A stretch of 64,000 nucleotides of DNA from a virus (IMGVR_UViG_3300006841_000093:1-64000); one strand, 5' to 3'. Positions 36,531 to 62,679 are shown, counted from the stretch's first letter. Made by a program: numbers and translations. The notes: generated by a model not told the origin, from the letters alone.

Positions 36531-37715
36531 ATGTTAAATTTAAAATCATTCATTGTGGATGATGAGTTGATAATTGATAAACCAAATTGGTATAAACTCA
36601 AAAATGAGTATTCACAACAAGAATTGAAAGATGCAATATCTGATACTATTGAGGGCTTACCATTACCATTATTTCCAATTACCGAAAAAGAAGCTAAAGA
36701 AGAATTTGAAGAATTAGTAAAGTTTGATGCAAGAACTTTATTAACTAAAGACAATCTGTATTCCAAAGCAGATTACAAGTATGAGTTGTCTCATTGGTAT
36801 TTAAAAAATAGTGTAGTGGGTAGAAAATCATCTAATTATTTTCATCAACTTGCTAGGTGGAGAGTACAACATGCAAGACATACTAGCCCCTATCGTTCTT
36901 GGACTATTAAAAAATTCCATCAAACATTTTTAAATCCTCTATGGACATTAAGTATGCCAGAGGTAAATAGTAAATATTTAAGAATGTGTATTCAAATGAG
37001 AATGTATATGGCGGCACAATATCCACCAGCAGTAGCAAAATCTCTTTACAATTTATTTGAAGCAAAAGATGTTTTAGATTTTTCTATGGGGTGGGGTGAT
37101 AGATTGGCAGGATTTCACGCCTCTAATGCAGAAAGTTATACAGGCATTGATCCTAATGAAGAAGTGATGAAAAATTATCCAAGACAAAATGAACTTTATG
37201 AAACTTATAAGAAAACAAAATTTATACAAGCTCCTGCTGAAGATGTGGACTTGAGTGATAGTGAATTTGATATGGTCTTTACATCGCCACCATATTTTCA
37301 TGTTGAAAGATATGCAGATGATGAAACACAATCTTGGAAACGATATGGAAAAGATATAGATGTTTGGTTAGGAGATTTTCTATTTCCAGTTTTGGAAAAA
37401 TGTTGGAACTCCTTAAAGGATGGTGGAACAATGATTGTCAATATAGCAGATGTATATGCAACAGATAAAGGACAAAATAAATCTTATGTATCTATTTGTG
37501 ATCCTATGAACGATTTTATAAAAACCCTTCCACAATCAGAATATACGGGATGTATCGGACTACAATTAAATCGAAGGCCTGGAAGTAATAATGATAAGCC
37601 AGAGTCAAAGAATAAAAAAATTATTGAACCAATGTGGGTATGGAAAAAAGGAGATGATAGGACATTGGATCAAATAATTGATGATACTTCCCCCTTAAGC
37701 AAATTTTTTCAATAA
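36531..37715 (+). CDS. Amino-DNA methyltransferase-like protein (SPPY type), copy 1
   Basis: Motif I 'DFSMGWGDRLAG', motif IV 'FTSPPYF'; C-terminal SPLSKFFQ. Confidence 0.85.
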   Translation: MLNLKSFIVDDELIIDKPNWYKLKNEYSQQELKDAISDTIEGLPLPLFPITEKEAKEEFEELVKFDARTLLTKDNLYSKADYKYELSHWYLKNSVVGRKSSNYFHQLARWRVQHARHTSPYRSWTIKKFHQTFLNPLWTLSMPEVNSKYLRMCIQMRMYMAAQYPPAVAKSLYNLFEAKDVLDFSMGWGDRLAGFHASNAESYTGIDPNEEVMKNYPRQNELYETYKKTKFIQAPAEDVDLSDSEFDMVFTSPPYFHVERYADDETQSWKRYGKDIDVWLGDFLFPVLEKCWNSLKDGGTMIVNIADVYATDKGQNKSYVSICDPMNDFIKTLPQSEYTGCIGLQLNRRPGSNNDKPESKNKKIIEPMWVWKKGDDRTLDQIIDDTSPLSKFFQ

Positions 37716-37720
37716 AAGAC

Positions 37721-37765
37721 TTGACATTTCACCCCAATTGTGCTATACTATAAGTAAACAATGAG
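37721..37765 (+). promoter_or_regulatory. Early promoter cassette copy 1 (TTGACA-N17-TATACT ... AAACAATGAG)
   Basis: Drives the structured leader and tRNA-Tyr. Confidence 0.75.
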
Positions 37766-37841
37766 AATTGTTGATGTGGGCCGGTGAGTGTAGGTACTTA
37801 CTGGGAGCCTATGAGGATGGGGCGGGTCATAGGATTTCAAT

Positions 37842-37926
37842 GGGGAGGCTGAGCACGTGGTGAGCCCAACGGACTGTAAATCCGCCGGATATTCCTGTGA
37901 AGGTTCGACTCCTTCTCTCCCCACCA
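37842..37926 (+). tRNA. tRNA-Tyr(GTA)
   Basis: GGGGAGG/TCTCCCC acceptor, anticodon loop CTGTAAA, long variable arm, GAAGG-TTCGACT-CCTTC, A73 + CCA. Confidence 0.93.
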
Positions 37927-44191: not shown

Positions 44192-44851
44192 ATGAAACTT
44201 ACAGCAGAAACAGTCGCGATACTTAAAAATTACGCAGCAATAAATCAAAACATACAGTTTAAGGAAGGTAAGACATTATCAACCATTTCCCCCCAAAAAA
44301 ATATTTTATCAAGTGCAGAAATTAGTGAAGAGATTTCACAAACATTTGCTATCTATGATCTTAATAGATTATTAGCGGCAATGAGTGCTTATGATAAAAT
44401 TCCAGAATTAATACTTGAAGAGAATCGATTGTTAATTAATGGTCAAACAAAATATACTTATGGTGATCCGGCCATGTTAGTATTACCTCCAGAGAAAAAA
44501 CTTGATTTTCCGGAGCCGGAGATACAATTTAAAATGCCAAAAGATAAGTATGATATGTGTTTGAAAATGGCATCGATTTTACAAGTTCCAGAATTAGTTG
44601 TACAAGGAGATGGAAGTAAAATATTTTTAGTTGCAACTGATACTAATAATTCTTCAGCAGATCAACATCCAGAAGAAGTTGGAACTACAGATAAACAATT
44701 TCAGATGGTTTTCAAGATTGAAAATATGAAACTTTTAAGTGGAAATTATGAAGTTGGAATCTCTTCTAAAGGTATTTCACATTTTTCACATGAACATTCT
44801 AAATTACAATATTGGATAGCAACAGAACAAAATTCAACGTTTAATGGATAA
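44192..44851 (+). CDS. gp45: Sliding clamp
   Basis: 'MKLTAETVAILKNYAAINQNI', 'FAIYDLNRLL', 'FKIENMKLLSGNYEV', 'YWIATE'. Confidence 0.95.
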   Translation: MKLTAETVAILKNYAAINQNIQFKEGKTLSTISPQKNILSSAEISEEISQTFAIYDLNRLLAAMSAYDKIPELILEENRLLINGQTKYTYGDPAMLVLPPEKKLDFPEPEIQFKMPKDKYDMCLKMASILQVPELVVQGDGSKIFLVATDTNNSSADQHPEEVGTTDKQFQMVFKIENMKLLSGNYEVGISSKGISHFSHEHSKLQYWIATEQNSTFNG

Positions 44852-44853
44852 AC

Positions 44854-45792
44854 ATGGAAAACTTTTTATGGGTCGAAGAATTCCGTCCTAAGACTGTAGC
44901 GGATTGTATTCTTATAGAACCAACTAAAGAAGTCTTTCAAGGTTTCGTTGATGATGGTAAAATTCCTAATTTACTTTTATCTGGCGGAGCGGGAGTAGGT
45001 AAAACTACTGTTGCTCGTGCTATGTGTGATGAAATTGGTGTAGACCATTTAATGATCAACGGATCTAATGAGGGAAGAAATATAGATACAGTAAGAACTA
45101 CTTTACAACAATACTGTAGTTCAGTTTCCATGTCAGGTGGAAGAAAAGTAGTAATAGTCGATGAGGCAGATTATATGAATGCTGATTCGGTACAACCTGC
45201 ATTAAGGGGGTTCATTGAAAAATTTAGTGCCAATGTTAGTTTTATCTTTACTTGTAATTTCCGTAATCGGATTATTGATCCTATCCATAGTCGTTGCTCT
45301 GTAGTAGAATTTATTACTCCAAGATCAGAGAAACCAAAACTCGCTCAAGAGTGTTTAGTTAGGGTTAAAGAAATTCTAACACAAAAAGGAATTAAGTTTG
45401 AAGAAAAAGTACTTGCAGAATTAGTTTTGAAACATTTTCCAGATATGAGGAGAGTGATAAATGAACTTCAAAGATATGCAGCGGGTGGAATTATTGATGC
45501 CGGTATCTTAGCACAGATTGGTGAAATCAATCTTCTTGAACTGATGAAGGCGTTGAAGGAAAAACATTTTTCAGAAGTTCGTAAATGGGTTACACAAAAT
45601 ATCGATAATGATCCAGTAAAGATTTTTAGAAAGATTTATGATGGTGTACATGAACATCTCAAAGATACTTCAATTCCACAAGCTGTTCTTGTTATTGCAG
45701 AATATCAATATAAATCTGCGTTTGTTGCAGATCAAGAAATTAACTTAGTTGCCTGTCTCACAGAGATGATGGTTGATTGCGAGTTTAAATGA
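44854..45792 (+). CDS. gp44: Clamp loader large subunit
   Basis: 'LWVEEFRPK', 'GGAGVGKTT', 'VDEAD', 'IIDPIHSRC', 'ADQEINLVACLTE'. Confidence 0.97.
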   Translation: MENFLWVEEFRPKTVADCILIEPTKEVFQGFVDDGKIPNLLLSGGAGVGKTTVARAMCDEIGVDHLMINGSNEGRNIDTVRTTLQQYCSSVSMSGGRKVVIVDEADYMNADSVQPALRGFIEKFSANVSFIFTCNFRNRIIDPIHSRCSVVEFITPRSEKPKLAQECLVRVKEILTQKGIKFEEKVLAELVLKHFPDMRRVINELQRYAAGGIIDAGILAQIGEINLLELMKALKEKHFSEVRKWVTQNIDNDPVKIFRKIYDGVHEHLKDTSIPQAVLVIAEYQYKSAFVADQEINLVACLTEMMVDCEFK

Positions 45793-47237
45793 ACGAAGAA
45801 CTATTAAAAATATATGAAGATAATACAAATGAATATGGATTGCCGGTATTCGATTTATTTACTTGGCAAAATATAAATACAAAATATATTGATCCTGATA
45901 CTTCTTTGCCTATGTCTAAACGGGCTAAAGTCATGATCGATACTATGATACATTTCTTTGAAAAACACAAACCTAAATTTCCATTTAGAGATTTTGATGA
46001 GCACGATGTTAGACAAAACTTTTATACTTTATGTAATCTCAATCTAAAAGATAATATCTTCCCTAAAGAAAAATGTAAAACTGTACATGAAAAATACGAT
46101 GACTATGTAGGAAATTTTCCAGAATGGGGAATGGGTATTTTAAATTTTAGTTCAAATTATAATAATATTTCAGATATGTTCATGAATCGTGAACGAATGA
46201 AATGTAGTTATGATCGTTCACCTAGCCCAATTACTATGTGGAATGATCAAACAGATTTAAAACAAATTCTTTCTCCAATATGGAGACTTCATCCTGATTG
46301 TGGAATGCCACTCAAGAATAATTTATATATTGAGGGTGTTAGAGTCGGAGCATATTTTGCTACTCAGTTTAAACCTTCAGTAGCAAAAGCCTTTTATGAT
46401 TTTACTAAGTCTAAAAAAGTTCTTGACACAAGTTCAGGATGGGGTGATCGAATGGCAGGATTCTTTGCATCAAATGCCGAAGAATATTATGGTATGGACC
46501 CGAATGGTGATCTACATCAAAACTATCACTCAATGGCCGTACAATATAATAATTGGTTAGGTGCAGAGAATCCCCAAACTACAACTGGAGATAATTGGTT
46601 TCAAGTTGAAGGTAAAAAGAAAGTAAAAATTTATAGATCACCGGCAGAGGATTTGCCGTGGGATGAAATTCCAGATGATATTGATATCATGTTTAGTTCA
46701 CCTCCGTATTTTGCTACTGAAAAATATGCAGAAGGAAGCAAGTTCGAAAATGATCAATCATGGAGTCGTTATAATTCTTATGAAGCATGGAGAGATGGGT
46801 TTTATCTTCCAGTAATGAAAAAAGCATTTGAGAAATTATCTCCCGGTGGATGGTTAATGGTGAATATCATGGACCCAAAAGTTAAAGGTAAAAGACATAA
46901 ATCTTGTGATGATTTGGTAAATGATCTTAAAGAATATTTTGTAGGTCAAATTGGAATGAGAATTATGGCTAGACCTAAAAGTATTAAATCTTTTGAGGGA
47001 GATACCCATGAAGAAAGAAAAGCAAAATATGATGAATGGCAAGCAAAATGGTTTATTGAATCAGTTTGGTGTTTTAGAAAGCCTGATCCTAGTAATAATA
47101 ATGTTGATATCTTTGCTCCTTATAAAGATTCTACTTTGGATGGCATGGGGCCAATCGTTGTTCAACAACCTATTAAAAAGAAAAAGTTATCAGAAGCAAC
47201 AACTGAGAAATCTTCATTAGAGGGGTTTTTTGATTAA
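45789..47237 (+). CDS. Amino-DNA methyltransferase-like protein (SPPY type), copy 2
   Basis: 'DTSSGWGDRMAG', 'FSSPPYF'; C-terminal KSSLEGFFD. Confidence 0.85.
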   Translation: MNEELLKIYEDNTNEYGLPVFDLFTWQNINTKYIDPDTSLPMSKRAKVMIDTMIHFFEKHKPKFPFRDFDEHDVRQNFYTLCNLNLKDNIFPKEKCKTVHEKYDDYVGNFPEWGMGILNFSSNYNNISDMFMNRERMKCSYDRSPSPITMWNDQTDLKQILSPIWRLHPDCGMPLKNNLYIEGVRVGAYFATQFKPSVAKAFYDFTKSKKVLDTSSGWGDRMAGFFASNAEEYYGMDPNGDLHQNYHSMAVQYNNWLGAENPQTTTGDNWFQVEGKKKVKIYRSPAEDLPWDEIPDDIDIMFSSPPYFATEKYAEGSKFENDQSWSRYNSYEAWRDGFYLPVMKKAFEKLSPGGWLMVNIMDPKVKGKRHKSCDDLVNDLKEYFVGQIGMRIMARPKSIKSFEGDTHEERKAKYDEWQAKWFIESVWCFRKPDPSNNNVDIFAPYKDSTLDGMGPIVVQQPIKKKKLSEATTEKSSLEGFFD

Positions 47238-48036
47238 TGAAATCACACCATTAGAACAGTATAAAATAAAAGATAAAACTGTTCATGTAAAACGTGATGA
47301 TCTCATGGGAGATGGAGTTGAACATCCACCGTGGGGTAAACTGACTGCTCTACGTAAGGTGTTAGAGACTATTAATCCTCAAAAACCATTAATACATCTT
47401 TCTGTTTATGGGTCTTGGTCTGGATGGGCACTCTCTGAAGTGTCAAAAGAATTAGATTATGAATTTATTATGGCCTATCCTGACTCTAAGAAATTCCCAA
47501 AACATATTTTAGACAAATCAGAAAATGTTCTTCCTATTAAACCTAATATGATGAACGTGATGTATAATAAAGTGGGACAGATAGCAAGAGAAAAAGATTA
47601 CATTAGATTACCATATGCGTTTGATCATCTAGAGTATATTAAAACACAAAAAGCTAGACTATACGAAGTTAAACAAGAATTAGAGTTTGATCATTTAGTA
47701 GTTTCTTCTGGATCGGGAGTTACTTGTCTTGGAATGGTGATGGAACATGAACCGTGGCCACAATTATTTGATACAGGAAATACAAGAACTTTTCATACTG
47801 TATGTGTATCAAGTGAAGGAACTATTAAAAAGAAATTTAAAAAATATGGTATCGAACCAACAGAACAAGTTGAAATAGTCAAGAGTAAATTTGCATTTGA
47901 TGATATGATGGATTCGTATGAAACTCCATTTCCTTGTAATGAATTTTGGGATAAGAAGGCTTGGTATTGGTTAGAACAAAACATTGACAAATTTAAAGGT
48001 GAAATTTTATTTTGGAATCTGGGAGGTAACTGGTGA
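47230..48036 (+). CDS. PLP-dependent fold-type II enzyme (ACC deaminase/D-cysteine desulfhydrase-like)
   Basis: 'ITPLEQ...VHVKRDDL...WGKL', 'VVSSGSGVT', 'ILFWNLGG'. Confidence 0.75.
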   Translation: MINEITPLEQYKIKDKTVHVKRDDLMGDGVEHPPWGKLTALRKVLETINPQKPLIHLSVYGSWSGWALSEVSKELDYEFIMAYPDSKKFPKHILDKSENVLPIKPNMMNVMYNKVGQIAREKDYIRLPYAFDHLEYIKTQKARLYEVKQELEFDHLVVSSGSGVTCLGMVMEHEPWPQLFDTGNTRTFHTVCVSSEGTIKKKFKKYGIEPTEQVEIVKSKFAFDDMMDSYETPFPCNEFWDKKAWYWLEQNIDKFKGEILFWNLGGNW

Positions 48037-50097: not shown

Positions 50098-50194
50098 ATA
50101 TAATAGTAGATAACAATATGGTTTTGTTATCAAGTAAGTTGTTATACCTTAAACGTGGTGGACGCAACTCTAAATAACTTTTTTGGAGATAGTA

Positions 50195-51229
50195 ATGGAA
50201 AATTACACAAATGGCAGTAGACTGCTACAAAATAAGACTGTACCTATTACAGTTATAGCTGAAAGATTAAATCTCTCACCTAAAAGAAAATCGTTCAATA
50301 AAAACGATTACCTACCAATAACTTACCTCAAAGCAAGTCAACTTAAAGTAGCCACAGATATTCAGAGAATAGTCATAATCTCGATGATTAAAGGGGCTAA
50401 AGTTTTTAATGGTAAATTAGCAAGACCTTTATATGTCTTTAAAAGACCAAATGGTGATTATGTTGTAACAGATGGACAACATACTGCAATTATTGCAATT
50501 TTGTATACTGAGGAACGTGGTGATGTTATATTGCCTTGTCAAATAGATATACATCCCTCACATTATACCATTGAAGAATGTGAAGCGGCGGAAGCCCAAA
50601 AGTTTAGGGAGTTAAACAGTAAACGTAGACAAGCTGGTAAAGTAGATAGACTTAGGGCAGATATTGCAGAAGGACTTGAAGAGGCCTTACAGACTTTATC
50701 AGACCTAGTAGATATGGGTGTCCATGTTGAAAGACTTGGAAACGAAGATGGGCCTGAAGTTCATGGTTATTCTAAGTTAATGGAGGCACATAAAGCCTAT
50801 GGACTTAAAAGTGTTTGTTTAGCAATCGAACTATATCAAAAACTTCAAAACGATTCCAAATTTAGGAAGTGGAATAATATTGAAAAACCCCTTAATGGTG
50901 GTTTAATTGGTGGACTGGCAGCAGTTTACTATTTTATCAGAGAATATCTTGGAGAAGGTGATAAAAGGTTCGCTCTTGAAACTTTTTTAGATGATTATCT
51001 GGGTAAATTCAAACCAAAAGATTTGTTAGAGGGTACAGCAGGTGTTTCACAAGCTGTTCTTATTGCCCGAAAAATTATTATTAGTTGCAATACCCAAATA
51101 GATCTAGAACATATAACAAAGAAAAATGGTAATGTTCTAGAAGTAAATATTGGAGAAGAACTTTTGTCTCAAGCTGGATTGGGTGATCCTAGTAAAATGA
51201 AAAGGGAATTGACCAACTCCAGAACCTGA
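50195..51229 (+). CDS. ParB-like/DGQH-motif domain protein
   Basis: 'DIQR...PLYVFKRPNGDYVVTDGQHT'; ATG at 50195 with GGAG RBS. Confidence 0.65.
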   Translation: MENYTNGSRLLQNKTVPITVIAERLNLSPKRKSFNKNDYLPITYLKASQLKVATDIQRIVIISMIKGAKVFNGKLARPLYVFKRPNGDYVVTDGQHTAIIAILYTEERGDVILPCQIDIHPSHYTIEECEAAEAQKFRELNSKRRQAGKVDRLRADIAEGLEEALQTLSDLVDMGVHVERLGNEDGPEVHGYSKLMEAHKAYGLKSVCLAIELYQKLQNDSKFRKWNNIEKPLNGGLIGGLAAVYYFIREYLGEGDKRFALETFLDDYLGKFKPKDLLEGTAGVSQAVLIARKIIISCNTQIDLEHITKKNGNVLEVNIGEELLSQAGLGDPSKMKRELTNSRT

Positions 51230-51238: not shown

Positions 51239-52675
51239 ATGTGTGGATTCGTAGCTGGAAATATTTTTAAAGATACAAAACACTTTCATGCCGCGTTGAG
51301 TCTTATTGATCATCGCGGTAGAGATTATAAAGGTGTTAATTATTGTATTAAAACAAATACTTACTTAGGTCATAATAGACTTTCTATTCAGGGGTTGACT
51401 GAGGAATCTAATCAACCTATGATTAAAGATAATTATACATTAGTTTATAATGGTGAATTATGGCACAGTATGAATCCACATAAAGAAAAATTCAATTTAC
51501 AGACTAGTAGTGATACAGAGTTGTTACTCAATATGTTTCACTTAGACCAACAAGATTGTATCAAAACACTTGATGGTATGTTTGGGTTTGCGGTCTTGGA
51601 TAATAAAAGAAATTACTTGACCTTTGCTAGAGATTTTATGGGTAGAATTCCCTTGTACTTTTTCAAGAGAGGTAAAGAAATTATCGTAGCAAGTGAACTA
51701 AAAGCAATTACAAACTCATTGAACATTAATGCTTCTGATGTAGTATTAGCAGATCCAGGTTGTTACTATCAATTTGATTATGTAACAGGAGAATTGACAA
51801 AGAGAACATATTATGAATTTCCTGCAATGGATGATATTGAAGATATGTCAGAAGAAGAAGTGATGGATGGTATACGTAATTTATTAACTGAAGGTGTACA
51901 TAATGAGTTAATAAGTGATGTACCTGTTTGTACAATTTTGTCAGGCGGAGTAGATTCTACTGTCGTTACATATCTACTCAAACAAAAAATTCCAGATCTA
52001 CAAGCATTTGTAGTGAGTATGGGTGATACTGGAAAGAAAGATGATTTGTACTATGCAAGAATGGCGGCTAAAGAAATTGGTGTTCCACTCCATGAAGTTA
52101 TTATTGATGAGGAGTGGGTAGAACAAAATTTAACTGAAGCAGTCTATGCAGTCGAAGATTTTAGTTGGACACAAGTTTCTCCGGCGGTTGCTCAATTAGC
52201 ACTTTCCAAAAGAATTCATGATGAAGGGTTTAAGGTCGTCTTTGGTGGAGAAGGTAGTGATGAATTGTTTGCTTCCTATGGACATGTATTTGCGTGGAAC
52301 TATGAAGATAAAGATTACATCAAAGAACGATATAAGCTGGTAGTAAATCTCCACAAAAACAATTTAATACGAACCAACAAAGCAATGATGTATGGTGGAA
52401 CAGTAGAATTAAGAACACCATTTCTTCACAAAGATTTGGTCGAATTTTGTTTGAGAATTCCCCCGAAGTATAAGCAAACAGCCGATAGAGTGTGGAAACC
52501 AATGTTAAGAAAAGCTTTTTCTGGCAAACTTTCAGATGAATTATTATTCAGACCAAAAAAGACTTTTCAAGATGGTTGTCACACTATCTACCTCAAGAAT
52601 CATAAGGAAAGAATTAAAGAAACGTATTTGACGCATTATGGTCAAAAAAATCCATTAGAGAGTTTTTTCGGATGA
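51239..52675 (+). CDS. asnB: Asparagine synthetase B-like glutamine amidotransferase
   Basis: N-terminal Cys 'MCGF', 'HRGRD', 'HNRLSI', 'YNGEL', 'LSGGVDS', 'GEGSDELF', 'ELRTPFL'; C-terminal NPLESFFG. Confidence 0.9.
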   Translation: MCGFVAGNIFKDTKHFHAALSLIDHRGRDYKGVNYCIKTNTYLGHNRLSIQGLTEESNQPMIKDNYTLVYNGELWHSMNPHKEKFNLQTSSDTELLLNMFHLDQQDCIKTLDGMFGFAVLDNKRNYLTFARDFMGRIPLYFFKRGKEIIVASELKAITNSLNINASDVVLADPGCYYQFDYVTGELTKRTYYEFPAMDDIEDMSEEEVMDGIRNLLTEGVHNELISDVPVCTILSGGVDSTVVTYLLKQKIPDLQAFVVSMGDTGKKDDLYYARMAAKEIGVPLHEVIIDEEWVEQNLTEAVYAVEDFSWTQVSPAVAQLALSKRIHDEGFKVVFGGEGSDELFASYGHVFAWNYEDKDYIKERYKLVVNLHKNNLIRTNKAMMYGGTVELRTPFLHKDLVEFCLRIPPKYKQTADRVWKPMLRKAFSGKLSDELLFRPKKTFQDGCHTIYLKNHKERIKETYLTHYGQKNPLESFFG

Positions 52676-53772
52676 AATTATATAATGAAGATTGCATGAA
52701 ACAAATGCAAGAGATGATTGATGATGGAATTCAAGTTGATTCTGTTGTTACAGATCCCCCATACGGTATTCATTTTATGGGTAAGGATTGGGATAAATTT
52801 AAAGGTACTAAAGTTACCAAGAGTCAAGTAGTTACAAATTTGGGAGCAGGAATGAGAATGACTACTCACAAAGAAAATATGGATTTTCAGAAATGGTGTA
52901 ACGAATGGGCAATTTTGTGTTTAGAGTTATTAAAGCCAGGTGGTTATATTTTAGCATTTAGTTCTTCAAGGACTTATCATCATTTGGCTTGTGGTATTGA
53001 ATCAGCAGGATTTGAAGTACGAGATCAACTTATGTGGTTGTATGGTTCAGGATTTCCAAAGAGTATGAATATCGGAAAAGGTTGGGGAACTGCACTCAAA
53101 CCAGCACACGAACCTGTTGTTATGGCGAGGAAACCAGTTGAAGGAACTGTCGCAGATAATGTTTTGAAACATGGAACAGGTGGTATCAATATTGATGATT
53201 GTAGAATAGATTTATCTGAAGGTGATGATCCAAGATTGGGCGGTAAAGGAACTTGGAAAACTGATAAGATGGCAAAAGATGTTTATGTTGGTGGATATGC
53301 AGGAGAAGATCAAGGATCAAGTGAGTTGGGTAGATTTCCAGCAAATGTGATGCACGATGGTTTAGAACAAGAGTGGGCACGATTCTTCTATTGTCCAAAA
53401 GTTTCTAGAAATGAAAGGAACGGGGGATTGGAAAATATGGAAGAAAAGATACACAATACAGAAGATTGTACTAATTTACCATCTATAAGAACTAATAGTG
53501 TAAATACTTCTAGTGGGAAACAAAGAACAGTCAATCCTACCAAAAATAATCATCCAACAGTCAAACCGATTGAGTTGATGAAATACCTTTGTCGCCTTGT
53601 AACTCCAAAAGGTGGAATTGTTCTTGATCCATTTATGGGTTCAGGTTCTACTGGAATGGCTGCGAAGGATGAAGGATTTGATTTTGTGGGAATTGAACGG
53701 GAGAAGGAATATTTTGAGATTGCAGAAGCACGTATCAATGCTTCTTCACCTTTATTGGATTTTTTTGAATAA
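52672..53772 (+). CDS. DNA methyltransferase, N4/N6 beta class
   Basis: 'VTDPPY' before 'HPTVKP' and 'VLDPFMGSGST'; C-terminal SPLLDFFE. Confidence 0.92.
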   Translation: MKLYNEDCMKQMQEMIDDGIQVDSVVTDPPYGIHFMGKDWDKFKGTKVTKSQVVTNLGAGMRMTTHKENMDFQKWCNEWAILCLELLKPGGYILAFSSSRTYHHLACGIESAGFEVRDQLMWLYGSGFPKSMNIGKGWGTALKPAHEPVVMARKPVEGTVADNVLKHGTGGINIDDCRIDLSEGDDPRLGGKGTWKTDKMAKDVYVGGYAGEDQGSSELGRFPANVMHDGLEQEWARFFYCPKVSRNERNGGLENMEEKIHNTEDCTNLPSIRTNSVNTSSGKQRTVNPTKNNHPTVKPIELMKYLCRLVTPKGGIVLDPFMGSGSTGMAAKDEGFDFVGIEREKEYFEIAEARINASSPLLDFFE

Positions 53773-53822
53773 ACACTTGACTTTTTCATCAAAACCGTGG
53801 TATAATATAACTGAACAATGAG
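53767..53822 (+). promoter_or_regulatory. Early promoter cassette copy 4 (TTGACT-N18-TATAAT ... AACAATGAG)
   Basis: Near-identical to the copy at 40328. Confidence 0.85.
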
Positions 53823-53833
53823 TAATAACCTTA

Positions 53834-54103: not shown

Positions 54104-54654
54104 TGAGAGACTTTAGTATTGTAGAAACTGCTTCTAGGGCAGAAATGAAAGAAATTTTATTTTATGTTTTGAAGTGGTTTAAGAAAAAAACACTTGGTAA
54201 TCCATTTAATTATAATCGAGCATTTGAGTGGTTACAGGCTGAAATTCTTGGTTTTGAATTAGAGAAAGTAGGTGGTGGTTCTGATGGAAAAGATAAAGAT
54301 GGTGTAACAGCGGAGTTTAAAGCTTCTGCTTGGAAAGGTCTTGGCGCGAAGGGTCAAGAATTGACAAACTCTTTTACATACAATGGAACAAGTCGATATG
54401 AAGATTGGAATGAACAAGAAGATTATTGTCTGAAAAAGATTTTTCGTGATCCTTTTCATTTTTGGTCTATCATCAATTATGAGGAAGGGAAATTCGTAAA
54501 AACATTTAAAGTTCCTGCAGAAACAGTTTGTAATTTACTTATGCCTAAATGGACAAATAGTTGGAAAAATCCTAGTAAAAAAGATCCGAGAATAGGTGGT
54601 TCAGTTTCAACTAAAGATTTAGCAGGAGAAAATTTTGAAATCATCAATCACTAA
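54103..54654 (+). CDS. Putative PD-(D/E)xK restriction-like endonuclease
   Basis: 'RAFE...GGSDG...AEFKAS' arrangement; adjacent to a DNA MTase. Confidence 0.5.
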   Translation: MRDFSIVETASRAEMKEILFYVLKWFKKKTLGNPFNYNRAFEWLQAEILGFELEKVGGGSDGKDKDGVTAEFKASAWKGLGAKGQELTNSFTYNGTSRYEDWNEQEDYCLKKIFRDPFHFWSIINYEEGKFVKTFKVPAETVCNLLMPKWTNSWKNPSKKDPRIGGSVSTKDLAGENFEIINH

Positions 54655-55363
54655 ACAAACAGATTTAGAATTACTTTCTACGATTAAAAATAATTCTGTT
54701 GATCTGGTTCTTACAGATCCACCGTATATTATCTCTAGAAAATCTGGGATGCAATCCTATAAAAATAGTTTAGAGAAGGGTGGAAAGGTAGATGAAAAAT
54801 TTGGAAAGAAATATGCTATAACTACTGAATTTGGTGAGTGGGATAATTCTTACACTATAGATGATTTAGAAAAAGCGATAAATGAATTTTATAGAATACT
54901 AAAATCTGGTGGTTCATGTATTATATTTTTTGATATATGGAAAATAGAAACTCTGTCAAAGTTGTTAAGTAAATTTTCCAAACATAGATTTATTGAATGG
55001 GTTAAATCAAATCCAATGCCAGTCAATCAATATGCAACATATCTATCAAATGCAAGAGAGATAGCTATTAGTTGTGTAAAAGGTGGTAAGGCAACATTTA
55101 ACAGTAAATATGATAATGGAATTTATGATTATCCAATATATGGCGGAAAAGATAGATTTCATCCTACTCAAAAATCTTTACCGATGTTTGAGGAATTAAT
55201 TAAAAAACATTCTAATGAAGGAGATACAGTAGTTGATCCTTATGCCGGAAGTGGTACTACTGCGGTAGCCGCTATAAACACAAATAGAAATTATTTGTGC
55301 TGTGAACCCTCTGATGAATATTTTGAGAAGGGGAAAAAAAGATGTGAAGATGCAAAAGCATAA
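54635..55363 (+). CDS. DNA methyltransferase, N4/N6 beta class
   Basis: 'VLTDPPY', 'FHPTQKS', 'VVDPYAGSGTT'. Confidence 0.92.
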   Translation: MKSSITKQTDLELLSTIKNNSVDLVLTDPPYIISRKSGMQSYKNSLEKGGKVDEKFGKKYAITTEFGEWDNSYTIDDLEKAINEFYRILKSGGSCIIFFDIWKIETLSKLLSKFSKHRFIEWVKSNPMPVNQYATYLSNAREIAISCVKGGKATFNSKYDNGIYDYPIYGGKDRFHPTQKSLPMFEELIKKHSNEGDTVVDPYAGSGTTAVAAINTNRNYLCCEPSDEYFEKGKKRCEDAKA

Positions 55364-55371
55364 ATAATTTT

Positions 55372-56472
55372 ATGGAATTACAGCAGTTTAAAGAAGTTAG
55401 TCAATTATTCATGGATTATGATGGAGAAGTTCAGATTAATCCATTTGCAAAGGTTCATTGGGGTACTGTTCAAGAGAATCACCTCAATGGAAAACTGTTT
55501 GTTGACAATGATAAAAACTATGGTATAATAGGTAGTGAGGCTAAAACAAGTAGAGAAGTAAAAGATTTTTCTAATCAAGTTGTTGGTCAAATTAAAGTAG
55601 GAGATATCTGTATCAAGAGATTTTTCTACAAAGAAGGATATAGAGAAAATGTAGTAAATCATATTTCGAAAATGAGAGAATCAACATTCGGAGATCGTGA
55701 TTTATGGTTTACTCATATTAATATGGAACATGAAGGAGATAAAGCGGTTGCTAAAGAATTTAATGCAACTTGGTTATCTTCAAGAATAGACGCGGTAGCA
55801 GCAGAAGTTAGAGGAGTATATTATTCTGGAGAACAAAAACAAATAGGATTAGGAAAACATGAAAATATTCCTTGTTGTAGATTAGATTATCCATATATTG
55901 AAGGATTAGATGAATTTTCAGAAGAATTAGATGAATACGTGAAAGATGGATGGGGAATAGCAGATCATCAAAAATCTTATGGTGGTAAAGATAAAACGTG
56001 GACATCTATCGAAATAATACCATTAATAGTTACTTATGGTACTAAAAAAGCAAAACAAGGTCTTAGGGGCGATTTAAACGAAGAATATATTAAGAGATTT
56101 CCTATTATTGAGAATATTATCAATCAGATAACCACTTTTGATGACTGTTTGTGGTTAGCAGTTGCTAAAGTATCTCCAAAAGGTGGTAATATATCAAGAC
56201 ATAGTGATAAAGGTATCGACAAAATGAATGCCGGAATACAGATTGGTAAAACGGCAAGAATACATTATGTGATGAAATCTAATCCTGAAACATATTTTCA
56301 ATTACAAGACCTTCAGGGAAAGACTCATAAATATTCTATGAAACAAGGTGAATATTGGTATATGGATAAGAGAAAACCCCACTCCGTATACAATAAAGGT
56401 GATACATTTAGGTATCACATGATTTTTGATATGAAAGTAACACAAGATTTATGGGACCATTTGATTTTATAA
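55372..56472 (+). CDS. Aspartyl/asparaginyl beta-hydroxylase-like 2OG oxygenase with an extra N-terminal domain
   Basis: C-terminal 'ISRHSD...RIHY...KPHSVYN...RYHMIFD' (HxD...H...R). Confidence 0.75.
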   Translation: MELQQFKEVSQLFMDYDGEVQINPFAKVHWGTVQENHLNGKLFVDNDKNYGIIGSEAKTSREVKDFSNQVVGQIKVGDICIKRFFYKEGYRENVVNHISKMRESTFGDRDLWFTHINMEHEGDKAVAKEFNATWLSSRIDAVAAEVRGVYYSGEQKQIGLGKHENIPCCRLDYPYIEGLDEFSEELDEYVKDGWGIADHQKSYGGKDKTWTSIEIIPLIVTYGTKKAKQGLRGDLNEEYIKRFPIIENIINQITTFDDCLWLAVAKVSPKGGNISRHSDKGIDKMNAGIQIGKTARIHYVMKSNPETYFQLQDLQGKTHKYSMKQGEYWYMDKRKPHSVYNKGDTFRYHMIFDMKVTQDLWDHLIL

Positions 56473-56855
56473 AAGCAATCAATACACATAAAAATATCAT
56501 GAAAGATGGTGATCCATTGGCTGAAAAGGATTATGTACCTTTTCTTGTTAATCGTGGTTTATCGTTTTTTCAAGATACTGTTATACAAGTCAATGAAATG
56601 AATAGGTTACATTTTATTGACCACAAGCTCCAATTCGATTATTTGCTAAATAACATTAGACCAAGAAAGAGATGGTCTAAGTGGTTGAAACCAGACAAAA
56701 TTGATAATCTAGAACTAGTCAAAGAGTATTTTGGTTTCGGTAATGAAAAAGCAAAGGATGCTCTTGAAATCCTTTCTAGTGAGGATATCGAAGAGATTAA
56801 GAGAAAACTTGCAAAAGGTGGAATGGAGAAAAATAATGACAGTAAACATAGATGA
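56451..56855 (+). CDS. gp62: Clamp loader small subunit
   Basis: 'FDFIKAIN...YVPFLVNRGLSFFQDT...NEMN...IRPRKRWSKW...VKEYFG'. Confidence 0.93.
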   Translation: MGPFDFIKAINTHKNIMKDGDPLAEKDYVPFLVNRGLSFFQDTVIQVNEMNRLHFIDHKLQFDYLLNNIRPRKRWSKWLKPDKIDNLELVKEYFGFGNEKAKDALEILSSEDIEEIKRKLAKGGMEKNNDSKHR

Positions 56856-60040: not shown

Positions 60041-60109
60041 TCGAATTTTACATTAAATTTTATCTTCAAATACTTTTCACGGTGGGCGCGTTCATGGGTC
60101 GCTCATGGG

Positions 60110-60138
60110 TTGACAAACACATAAAACTGTGTTATAAT
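60110..60138 (+). promoter_or_regulatory. Sigma70-like promoter (TTGACA-N17-TATAAT) for gp43
   Basis: TTGACA at 60110, TATAAT at 60133. Confidence 0.75.
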
Positions 60139-60204
60139 AGGTTAGATGAAATTAATAGTGATTATGATAAAGAAACGCGAACAAACTGGTATCCCAAAAA
60201 CTAA

Positions 60205-62679
60205 ATGTCAAAATTTTATACTAACGTAGTATGTCTAGGTAATTATATTTTCGAAAGGGGAATAGAAAATGGATTACCTTTTGAAGAAAGACATGAATTT
60301 AAACCTACCTTATATATTCCTACCACAACTGAAACTAAATGGCGAACACTTGAAGATGAGCCAGTAGCCCCTGTTCAATGGGGATCTATTAAAGAAACCC
60401 GCGAATCAGTAAAAAAGTATGAAGGTGTAGATAACATGAAAATCTACGGCCATACAAATTATAATTATTCTTTTATTGCTGAAACATATCCAGAAAATAT
60501 TGATTACAATTTAGAACATCTTAAAATGATGTTTCTAGATATTGAAGTTGCTTCTGAACAAGGATTTCCTGATCCTGAAAACGCATCAGAAGAAGTAGTT
60601 GCCATTACTACAAAGATGGGTGATGATATTCAAGTTTGGGGTTGTAATGAATTTAAGAATGATAAAGAGGATATTACATATAATAGATGTTTTGATGAAC
60701 GACAATTATTAGAAGAATTTGTCATGTATTGGCAGAAGAATTGTCCTCATGTAATTTCTGGTTGGAACACAAAAACATTTGATACTCCATATCTTATTAA
60801 CAGAATTCGTAATATCTTAAATGAAACGTGGGTCAAGAAACTTTCACCGTGGGGATTTGTTAAAGAACAAAAAATCTTTGGTATGGGTGGTCGTGAAGTT
60901 CAGACTTATGAAATCTATGGTGTGTCTGAAATTGATTACTTGGATGCCTACAAGAAGTTTACTTATACTAATCAAGAGTCATATAGATTAGATCATATTG
61001 CTTATGTAGAATTGGGTCAAACTAAACTAGACTTTTCTGAAGTAGCAACACTCCATGAATTGTACAAGAAAGATTTTCAAAAGTTCATTGAATACAATAT
61101 TCAAGATACATTATTGGTTAGTCGCCTTGAAGATAAATTAAAACTTTTAGAATTGATTATTTCTCTGGCATATCTGTCGAAGTGTAATCTCACAGATGTA
61201 TTTGCACAGACTAGAATGTGGGATTGTATTATTTACAATCATCTTTTGAGAGAGAAAATTGTAATTCCTCAAAAGACTAAACATAGTAAAGGTGATATGT
61301 ATGAGGGTGCTTATGTTAAAGCACCACAATGTGGTAGACATGAATGGATTGTGAGTTTTGATTTAAACAGTCTATATCCACATTTGATTATGCAATATAA
61401 TATTTCTCCTGAAACCATCTTAGGACAATGGAAAGATGAAATAGGAGTAGAAGGTTTAATCGATAAAGAATTTGATACATCAGTTTGGAAACAAAAAGAT
61501 ATAACAGTTACACCGAATGGATCTGTTTATCGTAGAGATAAGCAAGGGTTTCTTCCCCAATTAATGGAAAGTATGTACAATGATAGGGTGAAATATAAAA
61601 AGAAAATGTTAGATGAACAGAAAAAGGGAAGAAACTCTGATCCAAATAAATTATCACAATATTACAACTATCAACAAAATTTAAAGATTGCATTAAACTC
61701 CGCCTATGGAGCAATGGGTAATCAATGGTTTCGTTATTATGATGAACGTAATGCAGAAGCAGTTACTGCAGCAGGTCAGTTATCAATTCAATGGGCCGAG
61801 AATGCAGTAAACAATTATTTAAACAAAACATTAGGTACACAAGATGTTGACTATATTGTTGCTATGGATACTGATTCTTTATATGTTCGTCTTGATGATC
61901 TTGTTTCTAGAATTGGTATTACCGATAAGGAAAAAATCATTGGATTCTTGGACAAGGCCTGTGGAAGAATCGAAGAAGTAATTGAAAAATGTTATACTGA
62001 ATTAGCGGAGTACATGAACGCCTATCAACAAAAGATGGTCATGAAACGTGAGGTCATTGCTGATACAGGAATTTGGACAGCAAAGAAACATTATATTCTG
62101 AACGTTCACGATTCTGAGGGTGTTCGATATGAAGAACCAAAATTAAAGATTGTGGGTATTGAAGCAATTAAAAGTTCAACACCAGAAGCATGTAGACAAT
62201 CACTTAGAGAGATTTTCAATATTATTATTTCAGGCACAGAAGATGATGTTATTGGTTATATTGAAAAGTTTAAAGAGAAGTTTTTTGGTTTGAATATGGA
62301 AGCTGTAGCATTTCCAAGATCTGTTAATGGATTAAAAAAATATAAAGATTCAGCAACAATTTATAAAAAATCAACTCCAATTCATGTTAAGGGAAGTTTA
62401 ATTTATAATCACATGTTGAGGACTAAGAAATTAACTAGAAGATATCCTGTTATACAAGAGGGTGAAAAGGTTAAGTTCACTTATCTCAAAGATCCAAATC
62501 CAGCAGGTGATAAAGTAATTTCTGTATTAAATAGTTTACCAAAAGAATTTGAATTAGAGAAATATATAGATTATGATACCCAATTTGAGAAAGCATTTAT
62601 CGAACCATTAAAAGGTGTATTAGATGTAATTGGGTGGGAAACAGAGAGAAAGTCAAGTCTTGACAATTTTTTTATATAG
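60205..62679 (+). CDS. gp43: Family B DNA polymerase
   Basis: Exo 'FLDIEV', 'SFDLNSLYP', 'KIALNSAYG', 'DTDS'; C-terminal KSSLDNFFI. Confidence 0.98.
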   Translation: MSKFYTNVVCLGNYIFERGIENGLPFEERHEFKPTLYIPTTTETKWRTLEDEPVAPVQWGSIKETRESVKKYEGVDNMKIYGHTNYNYSFIAETYPENIDYNLEHLKMMFLDIEVASEQGFPDPENASEEVVAITTKMGDDIQVWGCNEFKNDKEDITYNRCFDERQLLEEFVMYWQKNCPHVISGWNTKTFDTPYLINRIRNILNETWVKKLSPWGFVKEQKIFGMGGREVQTYEIYGVSEIDYLDAYKKFTYTNQESYRLDHIAYVELGQTKLDFSEVATLHELYKKDFQKFIEYNIQDTLLVSRLEDKLKLLELIISLAYLSKCNLTDVFAQTRMWDCIIYNHLLREKIVIPQKTKHSKGDMYEGAYVKAPQCGRHEWIVSFDLNSLYPHLIMQYNISPETILGQWKDEIGVEGLIDKEFDTSVWKQKDITVTPNGSVYRRDKQGFLPQLMESMYNDRVKYKKKMLDEQKKGRNSDPNKLSQYYNYQQNLKIALNSAYGAMGNQWFRYYDERNAEAVTAAGQLSIQWAENAVNNYLNKTLGTQDVDYIVAMDTDSLYVRLDDLVSRIGITDKEKIIGFLDKACGRIEEVIEKCYTELAEYMNAYQQKMVMKREVIADTGIWTAKKHYILNVHDSEGVRYEEPKLKIVGIEAIKSSTPEACRQSLREIFNIIISGTEDDVIGYIEKFKEKFFGLNMEAVAFPRSVNGLKKYKDSATIYKKSTPIHVKGSLIYNHMLRTKKLTRRYPVIQEGEKVKFTYLKDPNPAGDKVISVLNSLPKEFELEKYIDYDTQFEKAFIEPLKGVLDVIGWETERKSSLDNFFI

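What the first reader, a model, noticed from the sequence alone, without database searches (positions are those of the whole stretch)
36531..62679. DNA-modification enzymes carry the polymerase's sliding-clamp-binding tail: a candidate replisome-tethered modification system
Seen in sequence: the C-termini are gp43 KSSLDNFFI, MTase-2 (45789) KSSLEGFFD, AsnB-like (51239) KNPLESFFG, beta-MTase (52672) SSPLLDFFE and MTase-1 (36531) TSPLSKFFQ. Weaker matches are gp55 TALELFMSAA and the dehydrogenase (48248) KGNALFGD. These proteins belong to unrelated folds yet converge on [S/P]-L-x-x-F-F at the extreme end. Established: T4 gp43, gp55 and gp33 bind the gp45 clamp through short C-terminal (S/T)LDFL-type peptides. 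Inference: this phage loads MTases and an amidotransferase onto its own clamp, so newly replicated phage DNA, and not host DNA, is modified processively. That would also implicate the AsnB paralog in DNA chemistry rather than amino-acid supply.
Basis: partly seen in the sequence, partly recalled or inferred. Interest (0 to 1): 0.92.

Follow-up and report, generated by a model that had tools for sequence, protein, structure and literature searches.

The report
Clamp-docking tails on phage DNA-modification enzymes
In this marine T4-like phage, three DNA methyltransferase-type enzymes and an asparagine-synthetase-like amidotransferase end in the same short peptide as the phage DNA polymerase, which most likely hooks them onto the phage's sliding clamp so that DNA is modified where it is replicated; binding itself has not been measured.

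Summary
In the whole 134.5-kb genome, exactly five of about 203 ORFs end in [S/P]-L-x-x-F-F plus one residue (about 0.005 expected). They are the gp43 polymerase, three methyltransferase-type enzymes and an AsnB-like amidotransferase.

The tail aligns position for position with T4 gp43's clamp-binding end (SLDFLFG). It is a flexible add-on to unrelated folds and is kept in orthologs while the linker drifts. It also follows the polymerase's own tail in other T4-like lineages, for example x-K-F-F on polymerase, methyltransferase and AsnB alike. Homologous methyltransferases on contigs without T4-type replisome genes end in a bacterial beta-clamp-like QLSLF.

A co-fold of the gp45 trimer with the AsnB tail gave only weak support (0.39 against 0.00 for controls). 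Clamp docking is therefore well supported by comparison but not measured.

This scan has noted clamp tails on phage methyltransferases in other genomes. The AsnB client is new here. It is tailed in two deep lineages and linked to SPPY methyltransferase paralogs, which points to an unknown DNA hypermodification step that forms an amide. The claims of processive action and of selectivity for phage DNA remain untested.

The parts
60205..62679 (+). gp43 family B DNA polymerase. The tail KSSLDNFFI (62650-62676) is the reference clamp-binding-type peptide.
   Evidence: phrog_262 E 0, PF00136/PF03104. 51% identical to cyanophage gp43. The tail aligns with T4 gp43 SLDFLFG and S-SM2 NLELFFS.
44192..44851 (+). 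gp45 sliding clamp, the proposed docking platform.
   Evidence: phrog_223 E 1.9e-60, PF09116. A perfect sigma70-type promoter lies at 44125.
44854..45792 (+). gp44 clamp-loader large subunit. Its stop overlaps the start of MT2.
   Evidence: phrog_168 E 4.6e-118, PF21328.
56451..56855 (+). gp62 clamp-loader small subunit. It marks the far end of the island inserted between gp44 and gp62.
   Evidence: phrog_225 E 2.8e-40. regA follows it.
45789..47237 (+). MT2: 482-aa SPPY class I SAM methyltransferase-type enzyme with an unknown N-terminal domain of about 170 aa, a disordered linker (452-475) and the tail KSSLEGFFD (47208-47234).
   Evidence: PF01555 E 5.4e-7. Motifs I and IV seen in A3. AF2 model pLDDT 90.6 with residues 452-482 below 50. 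Nearest fold is Trm11. Tail kept in 26 orthologs, including 67% relatives with a different linker.
36531..37715 (+). MT1: 394-aa paralog of MT2 (31% identity) with an appended tail of about 20 aa ending TSPLSKFFQ (37686-37712).
   Evidence: Homologs at 39-47% identity end at the core ...EPMWVWKK, and only the 64-86% clade has the tail.
51239..52675 (+). AsnB-like glutamine-dependent amidotransferase with the tail KNPLESFFG (52646-52672). Its stop overlaps the start of the beta-MTase.
   Evidence: PF00733 E 1.7e-52 and GATase_7. 1CT9 E 1.5e-45. Cys2, SGGxDS, L473 and F476 are invariant in A1. All full-length homologs at 64% identity or more are tailed. In lineage B the tail is NKFF-type, like the gp43 there.
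52672..53772 (+). Beta-class N6/N4 DNA methyltransferase with the tail SSPLLDFFE (53743-53769).
   Evidence: PF01555 E 7e-38, phrog_67 E 6.9e-77. 100 of 120 best homologs end L..F[FLMYWI].
18948..19526 (+). gp55 late sigma factor, a canonical gp45 client. Its tail TALELFMSAA fits the loose motif.
   Evidence: phrog_234 E 1.8e-55. T4 gp55 ends SPSLDFLYEAND. Review PMC9690074.
48248..49126 (+). 2-hydroxyacid dehydrogenase ending NALFGD, a possible weaker tail.
   Evidence: PF02826/PF00389. N[AS]LF[GR]D is kept down to 47% identity, and one ortholog ends KSFFED. Whether this is a tail is unresolved.
49107..50051 (+). MT49107: third MT1-family paralog, untailed (ends at the core ...EPVFLFRKK).
50183..51229 (+). 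Viral protein of unknown function, only weakly ParB-like. First gene of the unit with AsnB and the beta-MTase, behind an 11/12 promoter match at 50070.
   Evidence: phrog_2558 E 5.3e-57, phrog_1033 E 7e-4. DUF6551 E 0.024..
47230..48036 (+). PALP-like (fold-type II PLP enzyme-like) protein that travels with AsnB and the dehydrogenase.
   Evidence: PF00291 E 0.0046, below cut-off. Atlas neighbours are PALP-like viral clusters. Co-occurrence seen.
55372..56472 (+). 2OG/Fe(II) oxygenase resembling amino-acid hydroxylases. Last gene of the island.
   Evidence: PF05118 E 2.5e-10. HxD...H is invariant in A7. Foldseek top hits are proline 4- and 3-hydroxylases and AspH, not TET/JBP.
54635..55363 (+). 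Second beta-class N6/N4 methyltransferase, untailed.
   Evidence: PF01555 E 4.3e-33. Ends ...RCEDAKA.

Best explanation
The shared C-terminal peptide [S/P/T]-L-x-x-F-[F/M/L] plus 0-3 residues is this phage lineage's version of the T4 gp45 clamp-binding tail. It has been added, behind a flexible linker, to three methyltransferase-type enzymes (MT1, MT2 and the beta-class MTase) and to an AsnB-family amidotransferase. These enzymes are made early, and MT2 appears to be co-transcribed with the clamp and its loader. They dock on gp45 rings that the gp44/62 loader places on phage DNA, so modification is concentrated on DNA that is being or has just been replicated. This resembles the way DNMT1 uses PCNA.

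The AsnB-like enzyme keeps its glutaminase and adenylation machinery but not AsnB's aspartate-binding segment. It most likely amidates a carboxyl group on a base adduct installed by the linked SPPY methyltransferase-type paralogs, as one step of an uncharacterised hypermodification.

Shown here: the motif, its enrichment, its appended and disordered nature, its conservation, its tracking of the polymerase tail, and the gene linkage. Inferred: binding to gp45, action on DNA, and the chemistry.
For: (1) Exactly 5 of 203 ORFs carry the strict motif against about 0.005 expected.
(2) The tail matches the phage's own gp43 tail, which aligns residue for residue with T4 gp43 SLDFLFG. gp55 also fits. 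T4 gp43, gp55 and gp33 tails bind gp45 (PMC9690074).
(3) The tail is appended. MT1 homologs at 39-47% identity stop at the catalytic core. MT2 residues 452-482 are disordered beyond a confident fold. The AsnB alignment to 1CT9 ends at residue 457.
(4) Conservation: L473 and F476 are invariant in an unanchored alignment of 27 AsnB orthologs while the linker varies. MT2 relatives at 67% identity keep TLESFFA behind a different linker. Synonymous codon changes occur at the conserved Leu and Phe.
(5) The tail tracks the polymerase tail on the same contigs: TLEGFFN/PLSEFFA, TLEDFF$/PLMEFM$, VLDDFL$/DLDSFL$, TLEDFFT/TLEKFL$. In a lineage with gp43 about 30% identical, the polymerase ends KKFFEF or DKFFSF, AsnB ends NKFFQYA, NKFFE or KKFWG, and MTases end NKFFS/G.
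(6) MTase homologs on contigs with terminase and portal genes and no T4-type replisome genes end QLSLFG or QLTLF, which is the beta-clamp type.
(7) In the wider MT1/MT2 family, 31 of 81 representatives carry 13-57-aa extensions ending in a hydrophobic pair and 34 stop at the core.
(8) An HNH cassette inserted at the MT2 stop carries a replacement copy of the tail codons.
(9) Co-fold of the gp45 trimer with AsnB residues 434-478: tool verdict 'weak support', ipSAE 0.39 (runs 0.37-0.44) against 0.00 for the best of three controls. The tool's mark was reached by 58 of 80 solved complexes and 2 of 110 mismatched pairs, but scores of 0.60 or under were given by only 7 of those 80 and by both passing mismatches. 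Runs agree in at least 34% of contacts, and partner pLDDT is at least 41.
(10) AsnB linkage: it lies next to two or three MT1-family paralogs and gp43/gp44 in lineage B. It overlaps the beta-MTase start here. Streptomyces phage TurkishDelight has a row of ParB-like, MTase, AsnB-like and MTase genes. E. coli AsnB's TTIR segment is TQVS here (the role of TTIR is from my own knowledge).
(11) Perfect sigma70-type promoters lie before gp45 and gp43, and an 11/12 match lies before the AsnB unit.
Against: No binding measurement exists, and the co-fold pass is weak and could reflect memory of solved clamp-peptide complexes. The gp33 homolog ends SKLPL, not this motif. Two MTase-type genes of the island (49107 and 54635) are untailed, and MT1 paralogs are untailed in lineage B. 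Tracking of the polymerase tail is imperfect: many lineage-B AsnB tails keep Leu or Ile at -3 although their polymerases do not. AsnB also occurs untailed with the same dehydrogenase, PALP-like and oxygenase partners (L153, L161) and fused to the dehydrogenase in homologs on long contigs. The module may therefore have a role in small-molecule metabolism. TurkishDelight's enzymes have no clamp-like tails. No known modification matches the gene set.
Confidence: 0.72

Rival explanations
1. The tails do bind gp45, but their role is not processive or replication-coupled modification. They might compete with the polymerase or gp55 for clamp sites to time the switch from replication to late transcription. 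Or they might simply concentrate enzymes near DNA, while the AsnB, dehydrogenase, PALP-like and oxygenase module makes a small-molecule donor or cofactor and does not act on DNA.
For: The AsnB/dehydrogenase/PALP-like/oxygenase set also occurs where AsnB is untailed (L153, L161) and as AsnB-dehydrogenase fusions. The oxygenase resembles free amino-acid hydroxylases. Two MTases work without tails.
Against: Tails on catalytic enzymes of several families, kept for long evolutionary times and replaced by beta-clamp peptides in other phages, fit substrate targeting better than competition. A metabolite-making enzyme gains little from a clamp tether.
Confidence: 0.12
2. The shared tail binds a common partner other than the clamp, for example the gp32 single-strand-binding protein, the helicase loader, the clamp loader or a chaperone.
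For: Binding was not measured. The gp33 homolog lacks the motif. The co-fold support is weak.
Against: The polymerase tail aligns with the T4 gp43 tail, whose partner is gp45. gp55, another gp45 client, fits the motif. Homologous MTases elsewhere carry the beta-clamp consensus at the same position. Controls in the co-fold scored 0.00.
Confidence: 0.08
3. The tail is a C-terminal turnover or sorting signal, such as a protease degron or a packaging tag, and is shared by early enzymes.
For: Hydrophobic C-termini can act as degrons in bacteria (own knowledge). All carriers are early-type genes.
Against: Only DNA enzymes carry it, out of about 203 ORFs. It follows the polymerase tail across lineages and switches to QLSLF in phages without a gp45-type clamp, which a host-protease degron would not do.
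Confidence: 0.04
4. The similarity is a by-product of DNA-level events, such as a mobile 3' cassette, gene conversion or overlap with downstream signals, and is not a selected peptide.
For: An HNH cassette in relatives duplicates the tail codons, and the HNH frame acquires the tail by reading into them.
Against: The five tails have different codons and different downstream sequence. Synonymous variation occurs at conserved residues. The motif persists at 40-67% protein identity in several families.
Confidence: 0.02

Closest known systems
C-terminal gp45-binding peptides of T4/RB69 gp43, gp55 and gp33 ((S/T)LDFL type)
   Same: Extreme C-terminal position, a flexible linker and a Leu plus aromatic-pair core. 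This phage's gp43 tail SLDNFFI aligns with T4 SLDFLFG. A gp45-type clamp and a gp44/62 loader are encoded.
   Different: The clients here are DNA-modification enzymes (three MTase-type and one AsnB-type amidotransferase), not polymerase or transcription factors. No paper in the searched library describes such clients. The gp33 homolog here has a different end.
DNMT1 bound to PCNA through a PIP box (replication-coupled maintenance methylation)
   Same: A DNA methyltransferase is recruited to the sliding clamp by a short peptide (PMC9690074). L-x-x-F-F equals the [LIM]-x-x-[FY]-[FY] half of the PIP box.
   Different: The peptide is C-terminal, not internal, and the conserved Gln is not in register. 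The clamp is gp45, not PCNA. The enzymes are amino-MTases, not C5-MTases. An amidotransferase is also tailed.
Bacterial beta-clamp-binding motif clients (QL[S/D]LF)
   Same: Homologs of the beta-class MTase on contigs without T4-type replisome genes end QLSLFG or QLTLF at the equivalent position. This shows the same design principle with another clamp.
   Different: This phage's tails lack the Gln and match its own gp43 tail, and its clamp is the trimeric gp45 type.
Phage DNA hypermodification clusters containing amidotransferases (GATases in ParB-linked thymidine clusters, PMC13229309 and PMC8989533; an AsnB-like gene in the 7-deazaguanine cluster of phage Motura)
   Same: An amidotransferase is encoded beside DNA-modifying genes and a (weakly) ParB-like protein.
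   Different: There is no TET/JBP oxygenase, and no P-loop kinase, aGPT-Pplase/AADT or deazaguanine genes were detected in the island. The partners are SPPY amino-MTase paralogs, a PALP-like protein, a 2-hydroxyacid dehydrogenase and an amino-acid-hydroxylase-like oxygenase. None of the published systems is reported to be clamp-tethered.

Membership tests
T4-type gp45 clamp clients with a C-terminal binding peptide | Hydrophobic/aromatic motif of the (S/T)LDFL(F/Y) type at the extreme C-terminus | tested here: met
   Five proteins end [SP]L..FF plus one residue, and the register aligns with T4 gp43 SLDFLFG.
T4-type gp45 clamp clients with a C-terminal binding peptide | The peptide lies outside the folded domain on a flexible linker | tested here: met
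   MT2 residues 452-482 have pLDDT below 50 after a confident core. MT1 homologs end at the core. AsnB homology to 1CT9 ends at residue 457.
T4-type gp45 clamp clients with a C-terminal binding peptide | The genome encodes a gp45-type clamp and a gp44/62 loader | tested here: met
   gp45 44192-44851, gp44 44854-45792, gp62 56451-56855.
T4-type gp45 clamp clients with a C-terminal binding peptide | Physical binding of the peptide to gp45 | tested here: inconclusive
   Prediction only. Tool verdict 'weak support': ipSAE 0.39 against 0.00 for the best control. The mark was reached by 58 of 80 solved complexes and 2 of 110 mismatches, but scores of 0.60 or under came from only 7 of those 80 and from both passing mismatches. 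Contact agreement is at least 34% and partner pLDDT at least 41. No measurement is possible with these tools.
Bacterial beta-clamp-binding motif clients | QL[S/D]LF-type pentapeptide, usually near a terminus | tested here: not met
   The tails in this genome lack the Gln-Leu-x-Leu-Phe pattern. The pattern occurs in MTase homologs of other phages.
PIP-box clients of PCNA | Q-x-x-[LIM]-x-x-[FY]-[FY] | tested here: not met
   The [L]-x-x-F-F half is present, but no Gln lies three residues before the Leu in any of the five tails. The clamp is gp45-type, not PCNA.
Asparagine synthetase B proper | N-terminal Cys nucleophile and PP-loop SGGxDS | tested here: met
   C2 and S235-G236-G237-D239-S240 are invariant. 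1CT9 E 1.5e-45.
Asparagine synthetase B proper | Aspartate-binding segment (E. coli TTIR; its role is from my own knowledge of AsnB mutagenesis) | tested here: not met
   It aligns to TQVS, which is invariant in the clade as T311, Q312 and S314.
N6/N4 amino-DNA methyltransferases | SAM-binding motif I and a (D/N/S)PP(Y/F) motif IV on a class I fold | tested here: met
   52672: PF01555 E 7e-38. MT1, MT2 and MT49107: LDFSxGWGDR plus SPPY. The MT2 model matches class I MTases such as Trm11. The transferred group and the target base were not tested.
ParB-dependent 5mYOX (TET/JBP) thymidine hypermodification clusters | A TET/JBP-family DNA dioxygenase with a cognate ParB | tested here: not met
   The island's oxygenase hits PF05118, and Foldseek places it with proline hydroxylases and AspH. 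The ParB likeness of 50183 is weak (E 7e-4).

The most novel reading that the evidence does not exclude
Marine T4-like phages carry out a multi-step DNA base hypermodification on the sliding clamp. SPPY methyltransferase-type paralogs install a carboxyl-bearing, amino-acid-like group on a base. A clamp-tethered AsnB-family enzyme then converts it to an amide using ATP and glutamine. A dehydrogenase, a PALP-like enzyme and an amino-acid-type hydroxylase make or tailor the donor. This would be a new modified base and the first amidotransferase shown to work on DNA from a replication clamp.
Probability: 0.3. Interest if true: 0.9.

Novelty: new variant of a known kind. Interest (0 to 1): 0.75.

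Why it matters
Clamp-binding tails are textbook for polymerases and for T4 late transcription factors. DNMT1 on PCNA is the model for replication-coupled methylation in animals. If phage DNA-modification enzymes use the same device, that would explain how a phage marks its own newly made DNA quickly and selectively before host nucleases see it. It also gives a simple sequence rule for finding DNA-acting enzymes among unannotated phage genes: does the protein share the polymerase's tail? Here that rule picks out an AsnB-family amidotransferase, in two deeply separated phage lineages. This makes an unknown amide-forming step in DNA hypermodification directly testable. The tail is also a portable tag that could be used to recruit enzymes to clamps.

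Tried and rejected
- **MT2 as gp62.** MT2 lies directly after gp44, so I considered that it might be the small clamp-loader subunit. Rejected: gp62 is the 134-aa ORF at 56451-56855.
- **The 94-aa ORF as gp33.** The ORF ending LGKFMT has no PHROG hit and looks like a Zn-ribbon protein. The gp33 homolog is at 131618-131845 and ends SKLPL.
- **The island as a ParB-dependent TET/JBP system.** Rejected: the oxygenase resembles amino-acid hydroxylases.
- **Two-class scoring of co-variation (Leu at -3 or not).** Too coarse, because many lineage-B AsnB tails keep Leu or Ile at -3.
- **The entropy table anchored on the motif.** It is circular at positions 0 and +3, so I rely on the unanchored alignment A1 instead.
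- **The 321-aa ORF upstream of MT1 (ends APMLNF).** No homologs in the fetched loci, so I dropped it.
- **Polymerase tails for the contigs whose MTases end KLPL, ALPL or TLPM.** The records were too fragmentary.
- **Nucleotide search of the phage collection.** A megablast of 44192-53772 found nothing.
- **PDB sequence searches of MT2, the PALP-like protein, the ParB-like protein and the oxygenase.** Nothing useful.
- **Tool issues.** One search was a mistaken placeholder of mine and did not run.

Full report
**What the window is.** The window is the first 64 kb of a 134.5-kb viral record. Its genes and order are those of a marine T4-like myovirus: CobT-like peptidase, CobS, gp45, gp44, gp62, regA, Hsp20, gp43, UvsX and gp41. 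Its polymerase is only 51% identical to the nearest cultured relatives, which are T4-like cyanophages. About 10.7 kb of enzymes (45789-56450) is inserted between gp44 and gp62. The 482-aa protein directly after gp44 is not gp62, which is the 134-aa ORF at 56451-56855 (phrog_225, E 2.8e-40).

**The observation.** Over the whole genome, exactly five of about 203 ORFs end [S/P]-L-x-x-F-F plus one residue:
- gp43;
- MT1 (36531);
- MT2 (45789);
- the AsnB-like enzyme (51239);
- the beta-class methyltransferase (52672).

The internal frequency of the motif and composition-matched shuffles both predict about 0.005 such termini, giving Poisson P about 2e-14. A looser pattern adds only gp55, a canonical clamp client, and a 94-aa Zn-ribbon-like protein. 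The five tails use different codons and have different downstream sequence, and orthologs show synonymous changes at the conserved Leu and Phe. The signal is therefore a peptide under selection and not a DNA repeat.

**Why the peptide is probably a clamp-binding tail.**
- T4 gp43 ends SLDFLFG, gp55 ends SLDFLYEAND and gp33 ends TLDFLL. These ends bind gp45 (PMC9690074).
- This phage's gp43 ends SLDNFFI, the same register, and cyanophage S-SM2 gp43 ends NLELFFS.
- The tail is an add-on. MT1 homologs at 39-47% identity stop exactly at the catalytic core (...EPMWVWKK), and only this clade has the extra 20 residues or so.
- The MT2 model is confident to about residue 445 (pLDDT 90.6, pTM 0.87) and disordered from 452 to the end, apart from a short helix over the motif.
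- The AsnB-like protein aligns with E. coli AsnB only to residue 457 of 478.

**Conservation.**
- All 26 MT2 orthologs recovered keep L-x-x-F-[FL]. That includes relatives at 67% identity whose linker is unrelated (...YRDTTLESFFA against ...TEKSSLEGFFD).
- In an unanchored alignment of 27 AsnB orthologs (65-96% identity), L473 and F476 are invariant while the preceding linker is not.
- Of the 120 best homologs of the beta-MTase (47-99% identity), 100 end L..F[FLMYWI], and most of the rest are close variants such as PLMDCFE or PLMEFV.
- In the wider MT1/MT2 family, 34 of 81 representatives stop at the core, and 31 have 13-57-aa extensions ending in a hydrophobic pair of varied, lineage-specific form.

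**The tail follows the polymerase tail.** On contigs that carry both genes, the client tail resembles the local polymerase tail.

| Contig or lineage | gp43 tail | Client tail(s) |
|---|---|---|
| G002 | TLEGFFN | MTase PLSEFFA |
| G003 | TLEDFF$ | MTase PLMEFM$ |
| G004/G005 | VLDDFL$ | MTase DLDSFL$ |
| G015 | TLEDFFT | MTase TLEKFL$ |
| Lineage B (gp43 about 30% identical, contigs up to 274 kb) | KKFFEF, DKFFSF, EQFFSFG | MTases NKFFS, NKFFG, NQFFG; AsnB NKFFQYA, NKFFSING, NKFFE, KKFWG |

The match is not perfect. Many lineage-B AsnB tails keep Leu or Ile at -3 although their polymerases have Ala, Lys or Asp there. The clearest shared feature in lineage B is Lys or Gln just before the Phe pair.

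As an outgroup, beta-MTase homologs on contigs with terminase and portal genes and no T4-type replisome genes end QLSLFG or QLTLF. That is the bacterial beta-clamp consensus. One complete 44-kb phage without gp43 has an untailed homolog.

**Co-fold.** A gp45 trimer (alignment A2) was folded with AsnB residues 434-478 (alignment A1). The tool's verdict was 'weak support'. The ipSAE was 0.39 (runs 0.37, 0.39 and 0.44) against 0.00 for the best of three controls. The tool's mark was reached by 58 of 80 solved complexes and 2 of 110 mismatched pairs, but scores of 0.60 or under came from only 7 of those 80 and from both mismatches that passed. Runs agree in at least 34% of contacts, and the partner's pLDDT is at least 41. 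Solved clamp-peptide complexes exist, so the pass may partly be memory. It adds little beyond the comparative evidence.

**The AsnB-like enzyme.** It belongs to the AsnB family (1CT9, E 1.5e-45), with the Cys2 nucleophile, the SGGxDS PP-loop and GEGSDE all intact. E. coli's TTIR segment aligns to an invariant TQVS. From my own knowledge of AsnB mutagenesis that segment contributes to aspartate binding, so a different carboxylate substrate is plausible.

- Every full-length homolog at 64% identity or more is tailed.
- More distant viral clades end SIFW, KFWE or NKFFQYA.
- The 548-aa homologs, some of them on 447-566-kb contigs, have no such tail.
- In lineage B the gene lies next to two or three MT1-family paralogs and gp43/gp44.
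- Here its stop overlaps the beta-MTase start, and the unit follows an 11/12 promoter match.
- Streptomyces phage TurkishDelight has ParB-like, ParB-like, methyltransferase, AsnB-like (33%) and methyltransferase genes in a row, without clamp-like tails.
- In Achromobacter phage Motura a more distant AsnB-like gene sits within a 7-deazaguanine cluster.
- Published work notes amidotransferases in thymidine-hypermodification clusters but assigns them no role (PMC13229309 and PMC8989533).

Together these results place the enzyme in DNA modification and not amino-acid supply. The reaction remains unknown.

**The rest of the island.**
- MT1, MT2 and MT49107 are paralogs with motif I (LDFSxGWGDR) and motif IV (SPPY) in gamma-like order, plus an unknown N-terminal domain of about 170 aa. 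The MT2 fold is nearest to exocyclic-amine methyltransferases such as Trm11.
- AsnB also travels with a PALP-like protein, a 2-hydroxyacid dehydrogenase and a 2OG/Fe(II) oxygenase. The oxygenase has an invariant HxD...H triad, and its fold is closest to proline 4- and 3-hydroxylases and AspH, not TET/JBP.
- AsnB-dehydrogenase fusions exist.
- The same four genes occur on two contigs where AsnB is untailed. The module may therefore make or tailor an amino-acid-like donor.
- The dehydrogenase's end, N[AS]LF[GR]D, is conserved down to 47% identity, and one ortholog ends KSFFED. Whether it is a weak tail is unresolved.

**Expression.** Perfect 12/12 sigma70-type promoters with an extended TG lie just upstream of gp45 (44125) and gp43 (60110). 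11/12 matches lie before the ParB-like/AsnB/beta-MTase unit (50070) and after the beta-MTase (53777). MT2's start overlaps the gp44 stop. This points to early expression together with the replisome, although the promoters are consensus matches only.

**Points against, or limits.**
- Binding is unmeasured.
- The gp33 homolog ends SKLPL. Some MTase homologs elsewhere end GKLPL, EALPL or QTLPM, which may be a second tail type. I could not obtain their polymerases.
- Two MTase-type genes of the island are untailed, and the MT1 paralogs are untailed in lineage B.
- Selectivity for phage over host DNA, and processivity, are inferences.

**Relation to earlier work.**
- In the searched library I found no paper describing clamp-binding tails on phage methyltransferases or amidotransferases.
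- This scan has noted such tails on phage methyltransferases in other genomes, and one note also records the beta-clamp peptide in relatives.
- I saw the beta-clamp-type tails myself, before reading those notes.
- The finding is a new variant of a known kind. The device is the T4 clamp-binding tail, and the logic is that of DNMT1 on PCNA. The clients are new, and the AsnB-type client is the part specific to this report.

Noticed in passing
window 34346-35433 (- strand): A 295-aa class II aminoacyl-tRNA-synthetase catalytic core without an anticodon domain (PF00152, E 1.3e-19) is followed by tRNA-Asn(GTT) at 34346-34422. It lies 1 kb upstream of the tailed MT1. Together with the AsnB-like gene this is an unexplained 'asparagine' theme. 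tRNA-Tyr is at 37842-37926.
   Followed up: partly
genome 123645-123929 (+), outside the window (L217:646-930): A 94-aa protein with a CxxC...CxxxC Zn-ribbon-like start, a basic disordered linker and the end DLGKFMT. It is the only other loose-motif hit in the genome, has no PHROG match and is a possible extra clamp client.
   Followed up: partly
L005:6780-7480 (also L006, L007, L023, L024, L042): An HNH endonuclease cassette is inserted exactly at the MT2 stop codon. It brings a diverged copy of the tail codons, so MT2 keeps TTLDGFFE*, while the HNH frame reads into the old tail (SLAGFFD*). The HNH tail is probably a by-product of where the cassette inserted.
   Followed up: yes
genome 131618-131845 (+); L115, L090, L048: The gp33 homolog ends SKLPL. 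Some beta-MTase homologs in other contigs end GKLPL, EALPL or QTLPM. This may be a second tail type shared by a canonical clamp client and methyltransferases.
   Followed up: partly
genome 126535-127368 (+): The RNase H homolog ends LTESLSEF, much like T4 RNase H (LTNSINEF). This conserved C-terminal end may also be a partner-binding peptide.
   Followed up: no
window 44125, 55502, 58103, 60110, 62660 (+): Five perfect 12/12 TTGACA-N16/17-TATAAT promoters, four of them with an extended TG, lie in 20 kb. The overall count of promoter-like sites is not above the shuffles. The 55502 site lies inside the oxygenase gene.
   Followed up: partly
P0171, P0214, P0215 (homologs of window 51239-52675): AsnB-like proteins of about 770 aa are fused to 2-hydroxyacid dehydrogenase domains. 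This links two separate genes of the island functionally.
   Followed up: partly
L223 (Streptomyces phage TurkishDelight, NC_073473.1 88364-93606): ParB-like, ParB-like, methyltransferase, AsnB-like amidotransferase and methyltransferase genes lie in a row at the genome end. The architecture resembles the core of this island, in an unrelated siphovirus, and there are no clamp-like tails.
   Followed up: partly
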